A stretch of DNA of 49,530 nucleotides, from sequence record NC_049825.1; one strand, given 5' to 3'. Source of the stretch: Escherichia phage grams. Numbering within the stretch: the first letter of the stretch is position 1; each line of letters begins with the position of its first letter. A program made the position numbers and the translations under genes. This document shows positions 7,255-13,414 of the stretch, in pieces. The notes beneath the pieces were generated by a model. It was not told the DNA's origin. It saw only the letters and a list, made by a program, of their open reading frames with translations, and did not search any database.

Positions 7255-7845
7255 ATGAAACGCGACATTATCATCCTTAACGGACCGCCAGGAGTTGGCA
7301 AGGATACGCTTGCGGCATACTTAACGGGCCATCGTTACGCAGCCGTTAAAGCGTCGTTTAAACAGCCTATGTTTGATATTGCGTTTTCCATGCTTGGCGT
7401 TTACCGATATGACGAGTTCATTGATCTGTATAACGACCGCGAGCAGAAAGAAAAGCCTCAAGCAATCTTGCAAGGCAAGTCGCCTCGCCAGTTCATGATC
7501 TGGATTAGCGAAGAAGTTATGAAGCCAGCTTTTGGTGAGCAATATTTCGGAAATCGCATGGTTGAGCAAGTACACGAGATGTACAGAGATTTAGCTGTTG
7601 TAATTAGTGATGGCGGATTCCCTGAAGAAATCAAGTCGCTAGTTAAGGCAGGCCATGAAGTGCATATTTGCCGACTGCATCGCGAAGGCTTCACGTTTGA
7701 TGGCGATTCACGAAACTATATTGACCTGAGCGGATACCATCACCGAGTAAAACATTACGACTTCACGATGATTGATGGCGATCCAGAAAAGACTGTTGAC
7801 GAGATCATCAAAACTGTCCAGTGGCAACACATCAAGATCAAATAG
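7255..7845 (+). CDS. deoxynucleoside monophosphate kinase-like P-loop kinase
   Basis: Walker A LNGPPGVGKDT; blocks YAAVKASFKQPMFDIAFSMLGV and VISDGGFPEEIKSLVKAGHEVHICRL recalled as similar to T4 gp1 dNMP kinase. Confidence 0.55.
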   Translation: MKRDIIILNGPPGVGKDTLAAYLTGHRYAAVKASFKQPMFDIAFSMLGVYRYDEFIDLYNDREQKEKPQAILQGKSPRQFMIWISEEVMKPAFGEQYFGNRMVEQVHEMYRDLAVVISDGGFPEEIKSLVKAGHEVHICRLHREGFTFDGDSRNYIDLSGYHHRVKHYDFTMIDGDPEKTVDEIIKTVQWQHIKIK

Positions 7846-10107: not shown

Positions 10108-10236
10108 ATGGGTAGCTATATAAAACCGTCGCAATGGTGCTCACAGAAGCAAGAGGAAGCATTGGAGCGCGACGATACTGAAACAGCAATGCACTATTTC
10201 GAAATGTACAACTTGTGGAAGGGTAGAGGTCTGTAA
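10108..10236 (+). CDS. small protein (42 aa)
   Basis: RBS AAGGTGA; stop overlaps next start (TAATG); below track cut-off. Confidence 0.35.
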   Translation: MGSYIKPSQWCSQKQEEALERDDTETAMHYFEMYNLWKGRGL

Positions 10237-10466
10237 TGTTTGGAATGAACGAGGCACAATTCAACGCTGCAAAACGCCAGGCTAAGAAGTGCGGCGAGGC
10301 AATGAAGGCGGATGTTGAAAAGCGCGGGAAGTATGTTGATGAAGTCATGAAGGGCATTATTGCCGAACATTATCAGCCAGTTGCGCCAATGCTGACAATT
10401 ACACAATTCATCTGGTTGTGTGGTTATCTTCGTGGGAGATGGGGAAACGCATTTGACCGCGAATGA
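10236..10466 (+). CDS. hypothetical protein (76 aa)
   Basis: ORF in operon context. Confidence 0.5.
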   Translation: MFGMNEAQFNAAKRQAKKCGEAMKADVEKRGKYVDEVMKGIIAEHYQPVAPMLTITQFIWLCGYLRGRWGNAFDRE

Positions 10467-10495
10467 TTGACAACGATTTCCTGATTGGTTAGCAT
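10467..10495 (+). promoter_or_regulatory. canonical sigma70 promoter
   Basis: TTGACA-N17-TAGCAT directly after stop codon of upstream gene. Confidence 0.5.
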
Positions 10496-10555
10496 ATTCA
10501 GCGTTTACATAAGAGCGGCATTAGTGCCGAACGGGTGGCGCGGTTGCCACGCAAC

Positions 10556-10620
10556 AATGGCGATGTGCTGGAGGTTATTGCGATGCAATATAATCCGTAA
10601 GACGTATCGCCTTTTTTTTT
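10556..10620 (+). terminator. candidate intrinsic terminator with long structured loop
   Basis: GGCGAT ... ATCGCC stem closing a structured region, followed by T9. Confidence 0.4.
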
Positions 10621-10632
10621 ATAGGTGAATAT

Positions 10633-10866
10633 ATGGAAAAGTACAAATTAACTTTCATGTTTAATAGCATGGTGATGAATCCCTTAAATGGTTACGCTTG
10701 CAATAGCTTTTCTGTTACCGTTAATGAGGATGAAATTGATGATGATGGAAAATTCATTCGAATTGGTGAATACTTGTACCCAGTGCACAATATCAATTGC
10801 ATCAAACGCGAGATCGTAAAAGATGAAGTACAAGGTAAGGTTGACGATCAGGCGAATGGGGCGTAA
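10633..10866 (+). CDS. hypothetical protein (77 aa)
   Basis: ORF with RBS AGGTGA. Confidence 0.5.
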   Translation: MEKYKLTFMFNSMVMNPLNGYACNSFSVTVNEDEIDDDGKFIRIGEYLYPVHNINCIKREIVKDEVQGKVDDQANGA

Positions 10867-11008
10867 TTGCTCGTCATGTAGACAAAGTTTTGAATGTGAG
10901 GTTGAAGCGCGCGGAGAGCTTGAGGCAGCAGCAAGAGCAAAAGAGTTGTCCGGCGCTAATCAAGACACTCACCAGTTTTCAATAGATCTTGTAAGGAAAA
11001 TGTCATGA
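10823..11008 (+). CDS. hypothetical small protein; start uncertain (10823 or 10856)
   Basis: ORF overlapping end of upstream gene; weak RBS. Confidence 0.25.
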   Translation: MKYKVRLTIRRMGRNCSSCRQSFECEVEARGELEAAARAKELSGANQDTHQFSIDLVRKMS

Positions 11009-11244
11009 GTTCTGTAATTATTGGTTTGGTTGCTTTAATCATTGGTGTTCTAATCGGCTTTGTTGCTGTATCTTTCGTGGTGGCTGTTGGTGTTCGCTAT
11101 AAGTCAAAAAAAGGTGAATTTGCTTTAGCGTTTTGGGATGAAGATCAGAAAGTTTGGCAGGTTCGCGGTCACTACTTATCAATCGGTGGCAGGATTCACA
11201 GCACTATGAAGACAAATCCAGAAAAAGTAAAATACAAGTATTGA
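11005..11244 (+). CDS. membrane-anchored protein (79 aa)
   Basis: N-terminal TM helix VIIGLVALIIGVLIGFVAVSFVVAV. Confidence 0.5.
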   Translation: MSSVIIGLVALIIGVLIGFVAVSFVVAVGVRYKSKKGEFALAFWDEDQKVWQVRGHYLSIGGRIHSTMKTNPEKVKYKY

Positions 11245-11251
11245 ACAACTA

Positions 11252-11275
11252 CCCGCCAAATGGCGGGTTTTTTAT
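11252..11275 (+). terminator. intrinsic terminator
   Basis: CCCGCCAAATGGCGGG followed by T-run. Confidence 0.7.
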
Positions 11276-11324
11276 TGCCTGCAATTTGTCTATAATGATG
11301 CTTTGTTATAAAGGAGGGCGCATT

Positions 11325-11846: not shown

Positions 11847-13414
11847 TGCTGATTTGGGAAGACTTAACAGCGGCGCAGAAACGCGCCGTTAAGGAAATGA
11901 GCGAATATTCATTCGAAAAGATGATCCGCATTTGGTTTCAATTATTGCAAGGTCAGAAATTCTTAGGAAACTGGCATTTCAGCTACCTATGTAGCGAAGT
12001 TGAAAAAATCATCAAAGGCGAGTCACAGAACGTAATTTTCAACATAACGCCAGGCAGCGGTAAAACAGAGATATTCTCGATCCATATGTCACCTTATGCG
12101 TCATTGAAAAGTAAGAAGGTGCGAAATCTTAATCTTTCGTTTAGTGATGGCCTTGTCCAGCAGAATAGTAACCGAATTAAGGAGATTATTGGTTCTCCAG
12201 AATGGCAGGAGCTATGGCCAGGAAAGCTGGCAAAGGCGAGCGCAAAGGATTTGATTGTAACCGATGGCGGCAAGGTTAAGTTACAAGTTAACTCGCGTTC
12301 TATCGGTGGTCAGGTTACTGGTCTGCGTGGCGGCTACATGGACGATGGATTTACTGGTATGCTGGTTCTTGATGATCCAGACAAGCCGGATGACATGCTT
12401 TCTAAGGTGAAGCGCGAAGCCGGACACATGCGCCTAAAGAACACGGTGCGATCGCGTCGAATGAAGGACACAACGCCCATCGTAATGGTCCAGCAACGGC
12501 TACACGTCAATGATTCAACATGGTTCATGACAAACGGCGGCATGGGCGGCATACAGTTTAAGGTGGTTAGTATTCCGGCGCTCGTTACTAAGGAATATCG
12601 CGAAACGCTTCCTGATTGGTTAAAGCCTGAGTTTGATCGCGATGTTTTGTCCAGTAAGCCAGTGATGATTGATGGAGTTGCTCATTATTCATTCTGGCCT
12701 GCTAAGGAAAGCGCGGAGGAATTGCTTGCGCTTCGAAATGCTGATCCGTACACGTTCGCTAGTCAGTATCAGCAACAGCCTGTTGCGCTTGGCGGTAACG
12801 TGTTTAAAACAGAGTGGTTTCAGTATTACGGCAGCAGCGAGAAATGCACGCTACCAAAACCGGATCGCTTTGAATATACATTTATCACGGTTGATACCGC
12901 ACAGAAAACAGGGGATCTTAACGACTACTCCGTGATCTGTTATTGGGGGATGTATAAAGATCGCGTTTACTTCATTGATGGTGTTCGCGGAAAATGGGAA
13001 GCACCAGACCTTGAGACTAATTTTGTTGCGTTCGTTAATCAGTGCTGGAAGCGCAATAAAGAATGCGGAACGTTGCGAAGGATTCATGTTGAAGATAAAT
13101 CGTCTGGCACTGGTTTGATTCAGAGTGCAGCGAAAAAAATAATGATCAAGATCAATCCCGTTCAGCGCGATAAAGACAAGGTTACTCGTGCAATGGACGC
13201 AGCGCCAGTAATGCGCGCCGGACGCGTAGCACTTCCAGAATCGCATCCTATGCTGGCTGAGATACTCGCTGAAGTTGCGGCGTTTACATTCGATGATTCG
13301 CATCCTCATGATGATATTGTTGATAACATCATTGATGCGGTTAACATTGAAATGAACATGGCAGATGATCCGGTAGGAAGAATGAAAAAATTGGCAGGTT
13401 TGCGGAACAAATAG
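11846..13414 (+). CDS. terminase large subunit
   Basis: 522 aa; P-loop ITPGSGKTE; N-terminal ATPase and C-terminal nuclease-sized domains; position before portal. Confidence 0.8.
   Translation: MLIWEDLTAAQKRAVKEMSEYSFEKMIRIWFQLLQGQKFLGNWHFSYLCSEVEKIIKGESQNVIFNITPGSGKTEIFSIHMSPYASLKSKKVRNLNLSFSDGLVQQNSNRIKEIIGSPEWQELWPGKLAKASAKDLIVTDGGKVKLQVNSRSIGGQVTGLRGGYMDDGFTGMLVLDDPDKPDDMLSKVKREAGHMRLKNTVRSRRMKDTTPIVMVQQRLHVNDSTWFMTNGGMGGIQFKVVSIPALVTKEYRETLPDWLKPEFDRDVLSSKPVMIDGVAHYSFWPAKESAEELLALRNADPYTFASQYQQQPVALGGNVFKTEWFQYYGSSEKCTLPKPDRFEYTFITVDTAQKTGDLNDYSVICYWGMYKDRVYFIDGVRGKWEAPDLETNFVAFVNQCWKRNKECGTLRRIHVEDKSSGTGLIQSAAKKIMIKINPVQRDKDKVTRAMDAAPVMRAGRVALPESHPMLAEILAEVAAFTFDDSHPHDDIVDNIIDAVNIEMNMADDPVGRMKKLAGLRNK

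What the first reader, a model, noticed from the sequence alone, without database searches (positions are those of the whole stretch)
10467..10620. Promoter-to-terminator unit without an ORF: candidate small RNA
Directly after the stop of gene 10236..10466 lies a canonical promoter (TTGACA-N17-TAGCAT, 10467..10495). About 110 nt later there is a T9 run preceded by a GGCGAT...ATCGCC stem (10556..10620), and the interval contains a further hairpin GTGGC-N6-GCCAC but no ORF with a ribosome-binding site. The next gene (10633) has its own SD. This could encode a phage small RNA of about 110-120 nt, or act as an attenuator.
Basis: inference. Interest (0 to 1): 0.55.

Follow-up and report, generated by a model that had tools for sequence, protein, structure and literature searches.

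The report
Conserved structured leader RNA of T1-family phages
The promoter-to-terminator unit is real and is one copy of an undescribed, strongly structured non-coding RNA found once per genome in phage T1 and its relatives; here it should be made as a roughly 118-nt RNA, but its function is not yet known.

Summary
TTGACA-17-TAGCAT sits at 10467-10495. Two small hairpins follow. A long GGCGAT...ATCGCC hairpin (-19 kcal/mol) abuts a T9 run at 10612-10620. No ORF is conserved.

The window is a Hanrivervirus (Drexlerviridae). The same unit occurs once, at the same place about 1.3 kb upstream of the large terminase gene, in every Drexlerviridae locus that had enough upstream DNA except one (L072). 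This includes T1 itself.

Helices H1, H2 and the last hairpin covary strongly: 92-99% of cells are paired against 20-63% in slid registers. G.U pairs outnumber A.C 37 to 2, so the + strand RNA is what folds. Several unpaired motifs are invariant: the 5' CGUNNACANANGAG, AACG, the H2 loop and CCGUAAG.

It matches no Rfam family, is not a tRNA, does not resemble HK022 put, and I found no paper describing it.

Only Tempevirinae-type phages have a T run after the last hairpin. In T1 and other lineages the hairpin runs straight into a ribosome-binding site, or into a tRNA gene in ESCO41. So the conserved object is a promoter-proximal structured leader of a short operon: variable small genes, a 61-aa basic protein, a membrane protein, then a terminator.

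I favour a cis-acting, factor-binding attenuator that also yields a discrete RNA. A trans-acting RNA remains a serious rival.

The parts
10467..10472 (+). -35 hexamer TTGACA, directly abutting the TGA stop of the upstream gene
   Evidence: TTGAC is kept in every family member.
10481..10489 (+). Conserved promoter-spacer motif CTGATTGGT (family consensus CTGAnnGGT). In most lineages its TG(n) serves as an extended -10.
   Evidence: TTGAC-N8-12-CTGANNGG occurs only once in the window.
10490..10495 (+). -10 hexamer TAGCAT. The predicted start is at about 10501-10503.
   Evidence: In all lineages but one, 6 nt separate the -10 from the conserved CGT block (5 nt in Cronobacter phage ESP2949-1, L069).
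10502..10515 (+). Conserved unpaired 5' block CGUUUACAUAAGAG (family pattern CGUNNACANANGAG)
   Evidence: Alignment A2, invariant T3, A6, C7, G12, A13
10516..10529 (+). Helix H1 (CGGCA / UGCCG, loop UUAG)
   Evidence: Covariation on the sequence-only alignment A2. Folding energy -5.7 kcal/mol.
10530..10534 (+). Invariant linker AACG(N)
10535..10550 (+). Helix H2 (GUGGC / GCCAC) with loop GCGGUU (family loop NCGNNN, often GCGAUA)
   Evidence: 98% of cells paired, and 4 of 5 pairs have changes on both sides.
10551..10558 (+). A-rich linker GCAACAAU
10559..10611 (+). Last helix, which is also the terminator hairpin. The basal 9-bp stem is 10559-10567 / 10603-10611. The GG/CC pairs are 10570-10571 / 10595-10596. 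The conserved CCGUAAGA is at 10595-10602. The apical hairpin at about 10572-10594 is lineage-specific.
   Evidence: 99.7% paired, with 4 pairs changed on both sides. Folding energy -19 kcal/mol. The apical insert is absent in most Hanriverviruses.
10612..10620 (+). U9 tract. With the preceding stem it forms an intrinsic terminator. Its length varies between relatives (T4 to T9).
10623..10866 (+). Ribosome-binding site (AGGTGA) and first downstream ORF (77 aa). This ORF is a variable, lineage-specific gene.
10823..11008 (+). 61-aa basic CxxC protein (PHROG 2919). It co-occurs with the RNA in all 17 representative lineages.
   Evidence: AF2 model and weak fold matches.
11005..11244 (+). 79-aa membrane protein (DUF7299), the last gene of the short operon
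11251..11274 (+). Intrinsic terminator that ends the short operon. It is followed by the small terminase gene's own conserved extended -10 promoter (TATAAT at 11291-11296).
   Evidence: The equivalent site in T1 is annotated as a rho-independent terminator.

Best explanation
This is the Hanrivervirus copy of a Drexlerviridae-wide structured RNA. It starts at the +1 of a conserved sigma-70 promoter. It folds into a 14-nt unpaired 5' block, H1, the linker AACG, H2, a further linker, and a last helix that carries CCGUAAG.

In this phage the last helix is followed by U9. Most polymerases that start at 10467-10495 should therefore stop at about 10618-10620 and release an RNA of roughly 118 nt. The remainder read into a short conserved operon: a variable ORF, a 61-aa basic protein, a membrane protein, and a terminator at 11251.

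My preferred mechanism (inferred) is a cis-acting leader or attenuator. The folded core would be a binding platform for a factor. The candidates are the co-conserved 61-aa protein, another phage or host protein, RNA polymerase itself, or a small ligand. Occupancy of that platform would set how much transcription proceeds into the operon. The terminated RNA would be the default product.

Shown: the sequence features, single copy, family-wide conservation, covariation, + strand polarity, the non-coding nature, and the operon context. Inferred: the transcription start, termination, and any regulatory action.
For: - Anatomy in the window.
- Family-wide presence at one syntenic place: model R1 found it in 44 of 49 terminase-anchored loci (4 of the other 5 have too little upstream DNA). 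Model R2 gave exactly one hit of 40-70 bits per locus and nothing else in 778 kb. The window has a single copy with filters off.
- T1 itself carries it, in an unannotated gap.
- Covariation on a sequence-only alignment of 44 distinct copies: 92.4% paired against 65% when shuffled and 21-50% when slid, with 8 of 10 pairs changed on both sides.
- Terminator helix: 99.7% paired, with 4 pairs changed on both sides.
- Last hairpin outside Tempevirinae: 7 different stems, all pairing.
- G.U 37 against A.C 2.
- No conserved ORF.
- Leader character: the start is fixed 6 nt after the -10 in all but one lineage (5 nt in L069), and an SD with ATG, or a tRNA, follows within about 3-25 nt in every lineage examined except L069, where the next ORF lies much further downstream.
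- The platform varies as in riboswitch or attenuator families: a T run in Tempevirinae-type lineages (T9 down to T4 or TTCTTTCC) and none in T1-type lineages.
- The RNA co-occurs with the 61-aa and membrane-protein genes, and the operon is bounded by a conserved terminator.
Against: - There is no transcript evidence of any kind.
- I saw no conserved alternative (antiterminator) pairing that would make the terminator switchable.
- In T1-type phages there is no terminator at all, so attenuation cannot be the function shared across the family. The shared function may be something else, such as RNA stability, a ribonucleoprotein, or modification of RNA polymerase.
- The first downstream gene varies, and in ESCO41 a tRNA is inserted there. 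This argues against control of one particular ORF's translation.
- The fold matches for the 61-aa protein are weak (E >= 0.08), so its RNA-binding role is a guess.
Confidence: 0.45

Rival explanations
1. It is a stand-alone, trans-acting stable RNA, either a protein-sequestering or scaffold RNA or a base-pairing sRNA. In Tempevirinae it is released by intrinsic termination. In T1-type phages it is released from the 5' end of the operon transcript by processing (RNase E, or RNase P in ESCO41). The downstream genes merely share its strong promoter.
For: - This window has a complete promoter-plus-terminator unit with a long U tail.
- A conserved 3' hairpin could protect a processed 3' end.
- In ESCO41 a tRNA gene starts 10 nt after the last hairpin. 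RNase P cleavage would therefore liberate a discrete leader RNA, as it does for the T4 stable RNAs C and D, which are co-transcribed with tRNAs (the T4 comparison is from general knowledge).
- The 5' block is unpaired and conserved, as in 5'-seed sRNAs.
- The StxS and lambda 6S precedent shows that short terminated leader transcripts can act in trans (general knowledge).
Against: - Most lineages have no terminator, and an ORF starts within about 25 nt.
- The 5' block has variable positions (4, 5, 9, 11) interspersed with invariant ones, which is unlike a contiguous seed.
- Conservation is spread over many loops and linkers.
- No complement to the 5' block occurs in the phage genome above chance.
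- Host targets could not be searched.
Confidence: 0.3
2. It is a put-like processive antiterminator. The nascent RNA would bind RNA polymerase and make it resistant to the terminators downstream, both the operon-end terminator and the in-line terminators of the packaging and morphogenesis genes. The strong leader promoter would then also feed late gene expression.
For: - It is promoter-proximal with a fixed 5' end, and it has a two-hairpin core with invariant unpaired bases.
- It is single-copy, at the head of the + strand block that holds several conserved intrinsic terminators. Examples are those before the small terminase gene and after the large terminase gene, in both this window and T1.
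- Put provides a functional precedent (PMC9378689).
Against: - There is no sequence or structure similarity to putL or putR. R1 scored at most 9.9 bits with filters off, and R2 found nothing at E<=1 with default filters, on the HK022 genome.
- The small terminase gene has its own conserved extended -10 promoter just after the terminator, so read-through is not required.
- In Tempevirinae the element itself ends in a good terminator. That is odd for an RNA whose job would be to abolish termination.
Confidence: 0.12
3. It is an orphan riboswitch. The conserved core would be an aptamer for a small molecule that reports host state. The expression platform would be a terminator in Tempevirinae and would act on translation or stability elsewhere.
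For: - It is a conserved multi-helix 5' UTR element with invariant unpaired nucleotides.
- The 3' platform differs between lineages.
Against: - It matches none of Rfam's families, even at permissive thresholds.
- No mutually exclusive alternative structure is evident.
- The downstream genes are unrelated to any metabolism.
- The element is restricted to one virulent phage family. No real copies turned up among the 26 pattern matches in 596 Gb of bacterial genomes.
Confidence: 0.08
4. It is only an ordinary operon boundary, that is, the terminator of the early gene cluster with a chance promoter-like sequence in front of it, or a DNA-level signal such as pac or an origin.
For: - The promoter match alone is not above chance.
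- The terminator would also stop transcripts coming from the upstream genes.
Against: - The promoter hexamers, the spacer motif and the exact distance to the RNA are conserved across subfamilies.
- Three helices covary, with a G.U over A.C asymmetry that fits + strand RNA rather than duplex DNA.
- Most lineages have no terminator here.
Confidence: 0.03

Closest known systems
Lambda PR'-6S RNA-tR' unit, and StxS of Stx phages
   Same: A strong promoter is followed after 100-200 nt by an intrinsic terminator. A short RNA is therefore the default product, and the genes beyond need read-through. In Stx phages the short RNA (StxS) also acts in trans.
   Different: - No Q homologue was recognised among the neighbouring genes.
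- There is no -10-like pause element in the initial transcribed region.
- The RNA here has covarying helices and invariant loops, which the lambda unit is not known to need.
- It heads a 0.6-0.8 kb operon, not the whole late region. The small terminase gene has its own promoter.
- The terminator is absent in most of the family.
HK022 putL/putR antiterminator RNAs
   Same: Both are promoter-proximal and have a defined 5' end. Both are structured nascent RNAs of 60-70 nt built from two stem-loops with essential unpaired bases. Put acts in cis without a dedicated phage protein (PMC9378689).
   Different: There is no detectable similarity. This RNA has an extra conserved 3' hairpin with CCGUAAG, and in this phage it ends in a terminator. 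Antitermination activity is untested.
Hfq-type phage and prophage sRNAs (for example DicF, IpeX, lambda OOP)
   Same: In this window the unit is a free-standing promoter-to-terminator unit of about 118 nt, with a U tail and an unpaired conserved 5' end.
   Different: The family members in T1-type phages lack the terminator and are 5' UTRs. The conservation pattern is that of a folded RNA, not a seed plus a terminator. No target is known.
Riboswitch and protein-binding leader RNAs (attenuators, ribosomal-protein leaders)
   Same: It is a conserved, structured 5' leader whose downstream expression platform differs between lineages: a terminator in some, and direct entry into the ribosome-binding site in others.
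   Different: There is no Rfam match, no evident alternative pairing, and no known ligand or protein.
Phage T4 stable RNAs C and D (species 1 and 2)
   Same: These are structured phage RNAs of unknown function that are co-transcribed with tRNA and released by processing. ESCO41 has a tRNA-Arg 10 nt after the leader.
   Different: There is no sequence relation. The tRNA is present in only one lineage here.

Membership tests
Any Rfam 15 family | Covariance-model score at or above the family's gathering threshold | tested here: not met
   The whole window gave 0 hits at gathering thresholds. Region 10300-10800 at E<=10 gave only chance snoRNA hits of 16 bits or less.
tRNA / tmRNA | Cloverleaf recognised by ARAGORN | tested here: not met
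   0 genes in the window
HK022 put RNA | Sequence or structure similarity to putL/putR | tested here: not met
   On the full HK022 genome, R1 with filters off scored at most 9.9 bits (E about 1), and that hit is not at the put sites. R2 found no hit at E<=1 (default filters).
HK022 put RNA | Promoter-proximal nascent RNA with a two-stem core | tested here: met
   The start is fixed 6 nt after the -10 in all but one lineage. H1 and H2 covary.
HK022 put RNA | Confers read-through of downstream terminators in cis, dependent on the beta' zinc-binding domain | not testable with these tools
   This needs in vitro transcription or reporter assays.
Lambda Q / PR'-tR' late unit | Promoter followed by a terminator that gives a short default transcript | tested here: met
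   Met in this window and in Tempevirinae-type relatives. Not met in T1-type relatives.
Lambda Q / PR'-tR' late unit | A Q-family antiterminator gene, and a -10-like pause element in the initial transcribed region | tested here: not met
   The eight neighbouring proteins tested match only unknown-function PHROGs and DUFs. The conserved +3..+8 hexamer is T(N)(N)ACA, not TAnnnT. The conserved spacer motif CTGAnnGGT could be a protein site, but that is untested.
Lambda Q / PR'-tR' late unit | Controls the whole late (lysis, packaging, morphogenesis) transcription unit | tested here: not met
   The unit heads a short operon that ends at a conserved terminator. The small terminase gene has its own conserved extended -10 promoter.
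Hfq-dependent base-pairing sRNA | Own promoter and a Rho-independent terminator with a U tail | tested here: met
   Met in this window. Not a family-wide feature.
Hfq-dependent base-pairing sRNA | Contiguous conserved seed complementary to target mRNAs | tested here: inconclusive
   The 5' block is conserved but interrupted by variable positions. No above-chance complement occurs in the phage genome. The host genome could not be scanned.
Riboswitch / attenuator leader | Conserved structured domain in a 5' UTR, with covariation | tested here: met
Riboswitch / attenuator leader | Mutually exclusive terminator and antiterminator structures | tested here: inconclusive
   No conserved competitor for the terminator's 5' arm was seen. 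Pairing between the H2 loop and the terminator's 3' arm does not covary (inspection).
Riboswitch / attenuator leader | Specific ligand or protein binding | not testable with these tools
   Needs biochemistry.

The most novel reading that the evidence does not exclude
The RNA is a new class of polymerase- or protein-binding regulatory RNA universal to T1-family phages. It could be a put-like antiterminator, or the RNA half of a small ribonucleoprotein formed with the co-conserved 61-aa protein. Either way it would act by a mechanism with no described homologue.
Probability: 0.25. Interest if true: 0.8.

Novelty: new variant of a known kind. Interest (0 to 1): 0.66.

Why it matters
T1 is one of the classical coliphages, and Drexlerviridae are among the commonest coliphages isolated. 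They are also used widely in defence-system screens (the BASEL collection, SECphi27). Yet how they control transcription is essentially unknown.

This is a strongly covarying, single-copy RNA that is restricted to the family and sits at a fixed promoter. It is unannotated in T1, and in some GenBank records it is overwritten by spurious CDS calls. It offers a concrete and easily testable handle on that regulation, and it could be a new RNA family for Rfam.

If the RNA binds polymerase or a phage protein, it would add a new example to the very short list of RNA-based elongation regulators.

Tried and rejected
- **Small peptide gene.** The ORFs in the unit are not conserved, and some relatives have none.
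- **tRNA or a known RNA family.** None found.
- **Put homology.** None found.
- **Antisense target inside the phage.** The complement of the 5' block occurs at chance level.
- **Whole-late-operon antitermination as a necessity.** I first reasoned that the terminase genes lacked a promoter. Reading the sequence showed a conserved TG(n)TATAAT promoter right after the terminator in all 15 lineages, so I withdrew that argument.
- **Upstream gene as a conserved partner.** Two unrelated gene families occupy that position.
- **Pseudoknot between the H2 loop (GCGAUA) and the terminator's 3' arm (UAUCGC).** It is attractive in Warwickvirus but does not covary in other lineages.
- **Closing helix between the 5' block and the 3' tail.** Predicted in some lineages but not conserved.
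- **boxA/boxB (nut), RfaH ops, K-turn, and D-arm likeness of a T1 hairpin.** These were only partial resemblances seen by eye and were not pursued.
- **Copies in bacterial genomes.** The 26 pattern hits in 596 Gb all scored 19.5 bits or less, so they are chance hits.
- **Literature.** Eight searches found no description of this RNA and no T1-family transcriptome.
- **Host target prediction.** Not feasible with the tools available.

Full report
**1. What is in the window**

- The upstream 76-aa gene ends with TGA at 10464-10466.
- TTGACA (10467-10472), a 17-nt spacer and TAGCAT (10490-10495) follow.
- Next come a 14-nt stretch, hairpin CGGCA-UUAG-UGCCG (10516-10529), AACGG, and hairpin GUGGC-GCGGUU-GCCAC (10535-10550).
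- Then come GCAACAAU and a 53-nt hairpin. Its 9-bp base (10559-10567 / 10603-10611) touches a U9 tract (10612-10620).
- AGGTGA and the ATG of the next gene follow at 10623 and 10633.

The terminator scan did not list the long hairpin because of its loop limit. Folding gives -19 kcal/mol, z = -3.1. Runs of eight or more T occur at only three places in the genome.

Taken alone, neither the promoter match nor the whole-RNA folding energy (z = -1.45) exceeds chance. The case rests on comparison with relatives.

**2. Identity of the phage, and known families**

The window is 99.6% identical to Escherichia phages JLBYU09 and JLBYU41, which are Drexlerviridae, Tempevirinae, Hanrivervirus. Rfam gives nothing at gathering thresholds over the whole window, and only chance snoRNA hits at E<=10 over the region. 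ARAGORN finds no tRNA. No GenBank record I inspected annotates an RNA here. Some records call CDSs across it.

**3. Conservation within Tempevirinae**

The intergenic unit is present in 134 phage records. I collected 26 distinct copies from Hanrivervirus, Warwickvirus and Henuseptimavirus and aligned them (A1).

- The base of the terminator hairpin is 99.7% paired, against 30-63% in slid registers. Four of its nine pairs change on both sides, for example A-U to C-G and U-A to C-G.
- The apical part is dispensable. This window and Warwickvirus carry an extra small hairpin of 18-20 nt that most Hanriverviruses lack.
- CCGUAAGA, which lies in the internal loop just 5' of the descending arm, is nearly invariant.
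- The T run varies: T9 here, T7 in the 99.6%-identical JLBYU41, and T4 in Henu7 with two of those T in the stem.
- No ORF is shared. Several copies have no + strand ORF at all.

**4. The element is family-wide**

I built a covariance model (R1) and searched 49 loci anchored on the large terminase gene, TerL. TerL identity to the window ranged from 46% to 99%.

- R1 matched 44 loci, always about 1.2-1.4 kb upstream of TerL. One of these is phage T1 itself (L074; confirmed as T1 at 7519-7819). There the element lies in the unannotated 164-nt gap between CPTT1_020 and CPTT1_021.
- Four of the five loci without a hit have too little upstream DNA. The fifth, L072, has none within 1.9 kb.
- Other named carriers are Klebsiella phages RCIP0096 and P-K7R, Escherichia phage ESCO41 (Nouzillyvirus), Enterobacter phage Ec_L1 and Cronobacter phage ESP2949-1.

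**5. The conserved core**

I aligned 44 distinct 5' modules with MAFFT, using no structural information (A2). The alignment shows:

- an unpaired block CGUNNACANANGAG that starts 6 nt after the -10 hexamer in all lineages but one (5 nt in L069);
- H1, followed by an invariant AAC(G);
- H2, whose loop keeps CG at positions 2-3.

On this alignment H1 and H2 are 92.4% paired. The figures are 65% after shuffling (0 of 500 shuffles reach the observed value) and 21-50% in slid registers. Eight of the ten pairs have changes on both sides, and the covariation score is 0.676 against 0.204.

Outside the Tempevirinae-type lineages the RNA continues with one or two variable hairpins. It ends in a 5-bp GC-rich hairpin whose loop ends in C(C)GUAA. 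I found seven different stems, all of which pair: GCGGG/CCCGC, GUGGG/CCCAC, GCCGG/CCGGC, GCCGC/GCGGC, GCCGU/GCGGC, GCCGU/ACGGC and GGGGG/CCCCC.

Across the counted helices (H1, H2 and the Tempevirinae terminator helix) G.U pairs outnumber A.C mismatches 37 to 2. The + strand RNA is therefore the selected molecule, rather than duplex DNA or the opposite strand.

A model of the 5' module alone (R2) hits once per locus at 40-70 bits. It hits nothing else in 778 kb, and only once in this window with filters off.

A promoter-plus-core sequence pattern was scanned against three collections.

| Collection | Pattern hits | Real members |
|---|---|---|
| IMG/VR | 43 stretches | 42, all on roughly 50-kb Drexlerviridae contigs |
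| Metagenome contigs | 84 stretches | 40 at 43-71 bits |
| 596 Gb of bacterial and archaeal genomes | 26 stretches | 0; none above 19.5 bits |

**6. The promoter**

TTGAC is invariant. The -10 reads TAnnnT in nearly all lineages (the Henuseptimavirus-type copies have TAACCT). In most lineages a TG(n) makes it an extended -10.

A spacer motif, CTGAnnGGT, is conserved even between subfamilies and is unique in this genome in that arrangement. A conserved spacer is unusual for a plain sigma-70 promoter and hints at a DNA-binding regulator. I could not test this.

**7. What differs between lineages**

Only Tempevirinae-type phages place a T run after the last helix. In T1-type, Klebsiella-, Enterobacter- and Nouzillyvirus-type phages the hairpin is followed by AAC(C/A)NUUC and then directly by a ribosome-binding site and an ATG.

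In ESCO41 a tRNA-Arg(UCU) gene begins 10 nt after the hairpin. Its relative L230 lacks the tRNA.

So the promoter-to-terminator appearance of this window is a lineage-specific form of a leader RNA. Even within Tempevirinae the quality of the terminator varies.

**8. Operon context, and a correction**

Downstream of the RNA every lineage has the following, in order:

- 0 to 2 variable small genes (here 10633-10866);
- a 61-aa basic CxxC protein (PHROG 2919; here 10823-11008);
- a roughly 75-aa membrane protein (DUF7299; 11005-11244);
- a strong intrinsic terminator (11251-11274; annotated as rho-independent in T1).

I first thought the terminase genes had no promoter of their own, which would have argued for processive antitermination. 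Reading the sequence showed otherwise. A conserved TG(n)TATAAT or TG(n)TAAAAT extended -10 promoter lies immediately after that terminator in all 15 lineages examined.

The leader therefore heads a short operon of 0.6-0.8 kb, not the whole late region. The gene upstream of the promoter belongs to two unrelated families in different lineages, so it is not an obligatory partner.

The 61-aa protein models confidently (pLDDT 88) as a beta-beta-alpha-beta fold. Its matches are weak (E 0.08-1, TM 0.5-0.7): small archaeal ribosomal-subunit proteins, PurS, and the epsilon subunit of B. subtilis RNA polymerase. This is suggestive of nucleic-acid or polymerase binding, and no more than that.

**9. Interpretation**

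Firmly established:

- This is a transcribed-strand, non-coding, structured RNA element.
- It is under purifying selection for its fold and for several unpaired motifs.
- It is coupled to a conserved promoter, single-copy, and restricted to Drexlerviridae.

In this phage its last helix plus U9 is a canonical intrinsic terminator.

Four features fit a cis-acting leader that binds a factor, and fit a seed-type sRNA less well. Conservation is dispersed. The 5' end is fixed. An ORF or a tRNA follows immediately in nearly every lineage examined. The 3' platform varies between lineages.

I therefore favour an attenuator or leader function (0.45). A stable trans-acting RNA, released by termination here and by processing elsewhere, comes second (0.30). 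Put-like antitermination (0.12) and an orphan riboswitch (0.08) are less likely. A trivial boundary or DNA signal is essentially excluded (0.03).

**10. Comparison with what is known**

The nearest functional analogues are:

- the lambda PR'-6S-tR' unit and its StxS derivative;
- HK022 put (PMC9378689);
- protein- or ligand-binding leaders.

Membership in put, in any Rfam family, or among the tRNAs was tested and not met. The defining Q features, namely a Q gene, a -10-like pause element and control of the whole late unit, were not met. Eight literature searches found no description of this RNA and no T1-family transcriptome.

I rate it a new RNA family of a known general kind. Interest is moderately high because it is universal in a classical and much-used phage family, and because decisive experiments are simple.

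Noticed in passing
L071 5749-5935 (Escherichia phage ESCO41): A tRNA-Arg(UCU) gene starts 10 nt after the leader's last hairpin. A second tRNA-like stretch follows it: the acceptor arms CTCGGCG...CGCCGAG, a GGTTCGATTCC T-loop, and a long internal insert. ARAGORN does not call this second stretch. The related contig L230 lacks both.
   Followed up: partly
window 11251-11324, and the equivalent place in 14 other lineages: The intrinsic terminator is followed at once by a conserved TTGCCTG and a TG(n)TATAAT or TG(n)TAAAAT extended -10 promoter in front of the small terminase gene. The TTGCCTG lies too close to the -10 to be a -35 element and may be a regulator site.
   Followed up: partly
L153 / L154 (metagenome contigs) against window 10328-10897: Two low-coverage contigs from one sample carry a 571-bp deletion across a 12-17 nt microhomology. 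It fuses the 76-aa upstream ORF in frame to the 61-aa ORF and removes the promoter, the RNA and gene 10633. This could be a real deletion mutant, which would imply the RNA is dispensable. It could also be a chimeric assembly.
   Followed up: partly
window 10612-10620: The terminator's T run is T9 here but T7 in the 99.6%-identical JLBYU41, and T4-T8 in other relatives. Homopolymers of 6 or more are reported to be slippage-prone in phages including SECphi27 (bioRxiv 10.1101/2025.10.21.683753). Tract length could therefore tune termination.
   Followed up: no
GenBank MG065638-MG065687 (for example L010, L012): Twenty UNVERIFIED records named 'Campylobacter phage A1xx' are classified in Hanrivervirus and match this E. 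coli phage region at 81-89% identity. The host assignment looks doubtful.
   Followed up: no
window 10823-11008: The 61-aa CxxC protein that always accompanies the RNA is predicted with pLDDT 88 as beta-beta-alpha-beta. It has weak structural matches to small archaeal ribosomal proteins, PurS and the epsilon subunit of B. subtilis RNA polymerase.
   Followed up: partly
L005 495-797, L006 495-797, L018 493-795, L126 857-1045: Several GenBank records annotate protein-coding genes that start inside the RNA or run across it. Examples are egaa gp61, aaroes_43 and herni_51, and ESCO41_00044 on the opposite strand. These are probably mis-annotations.
   Followed up: no
window 12612-12622: An exact second copy of the promoter-spacer motif CTGATTGGTTA lies inside the large terminase gene. 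Near matches (up to 2 mismatches) are more frequent in the genome than in shuffles (37 against 14.6).
   Followed up: no
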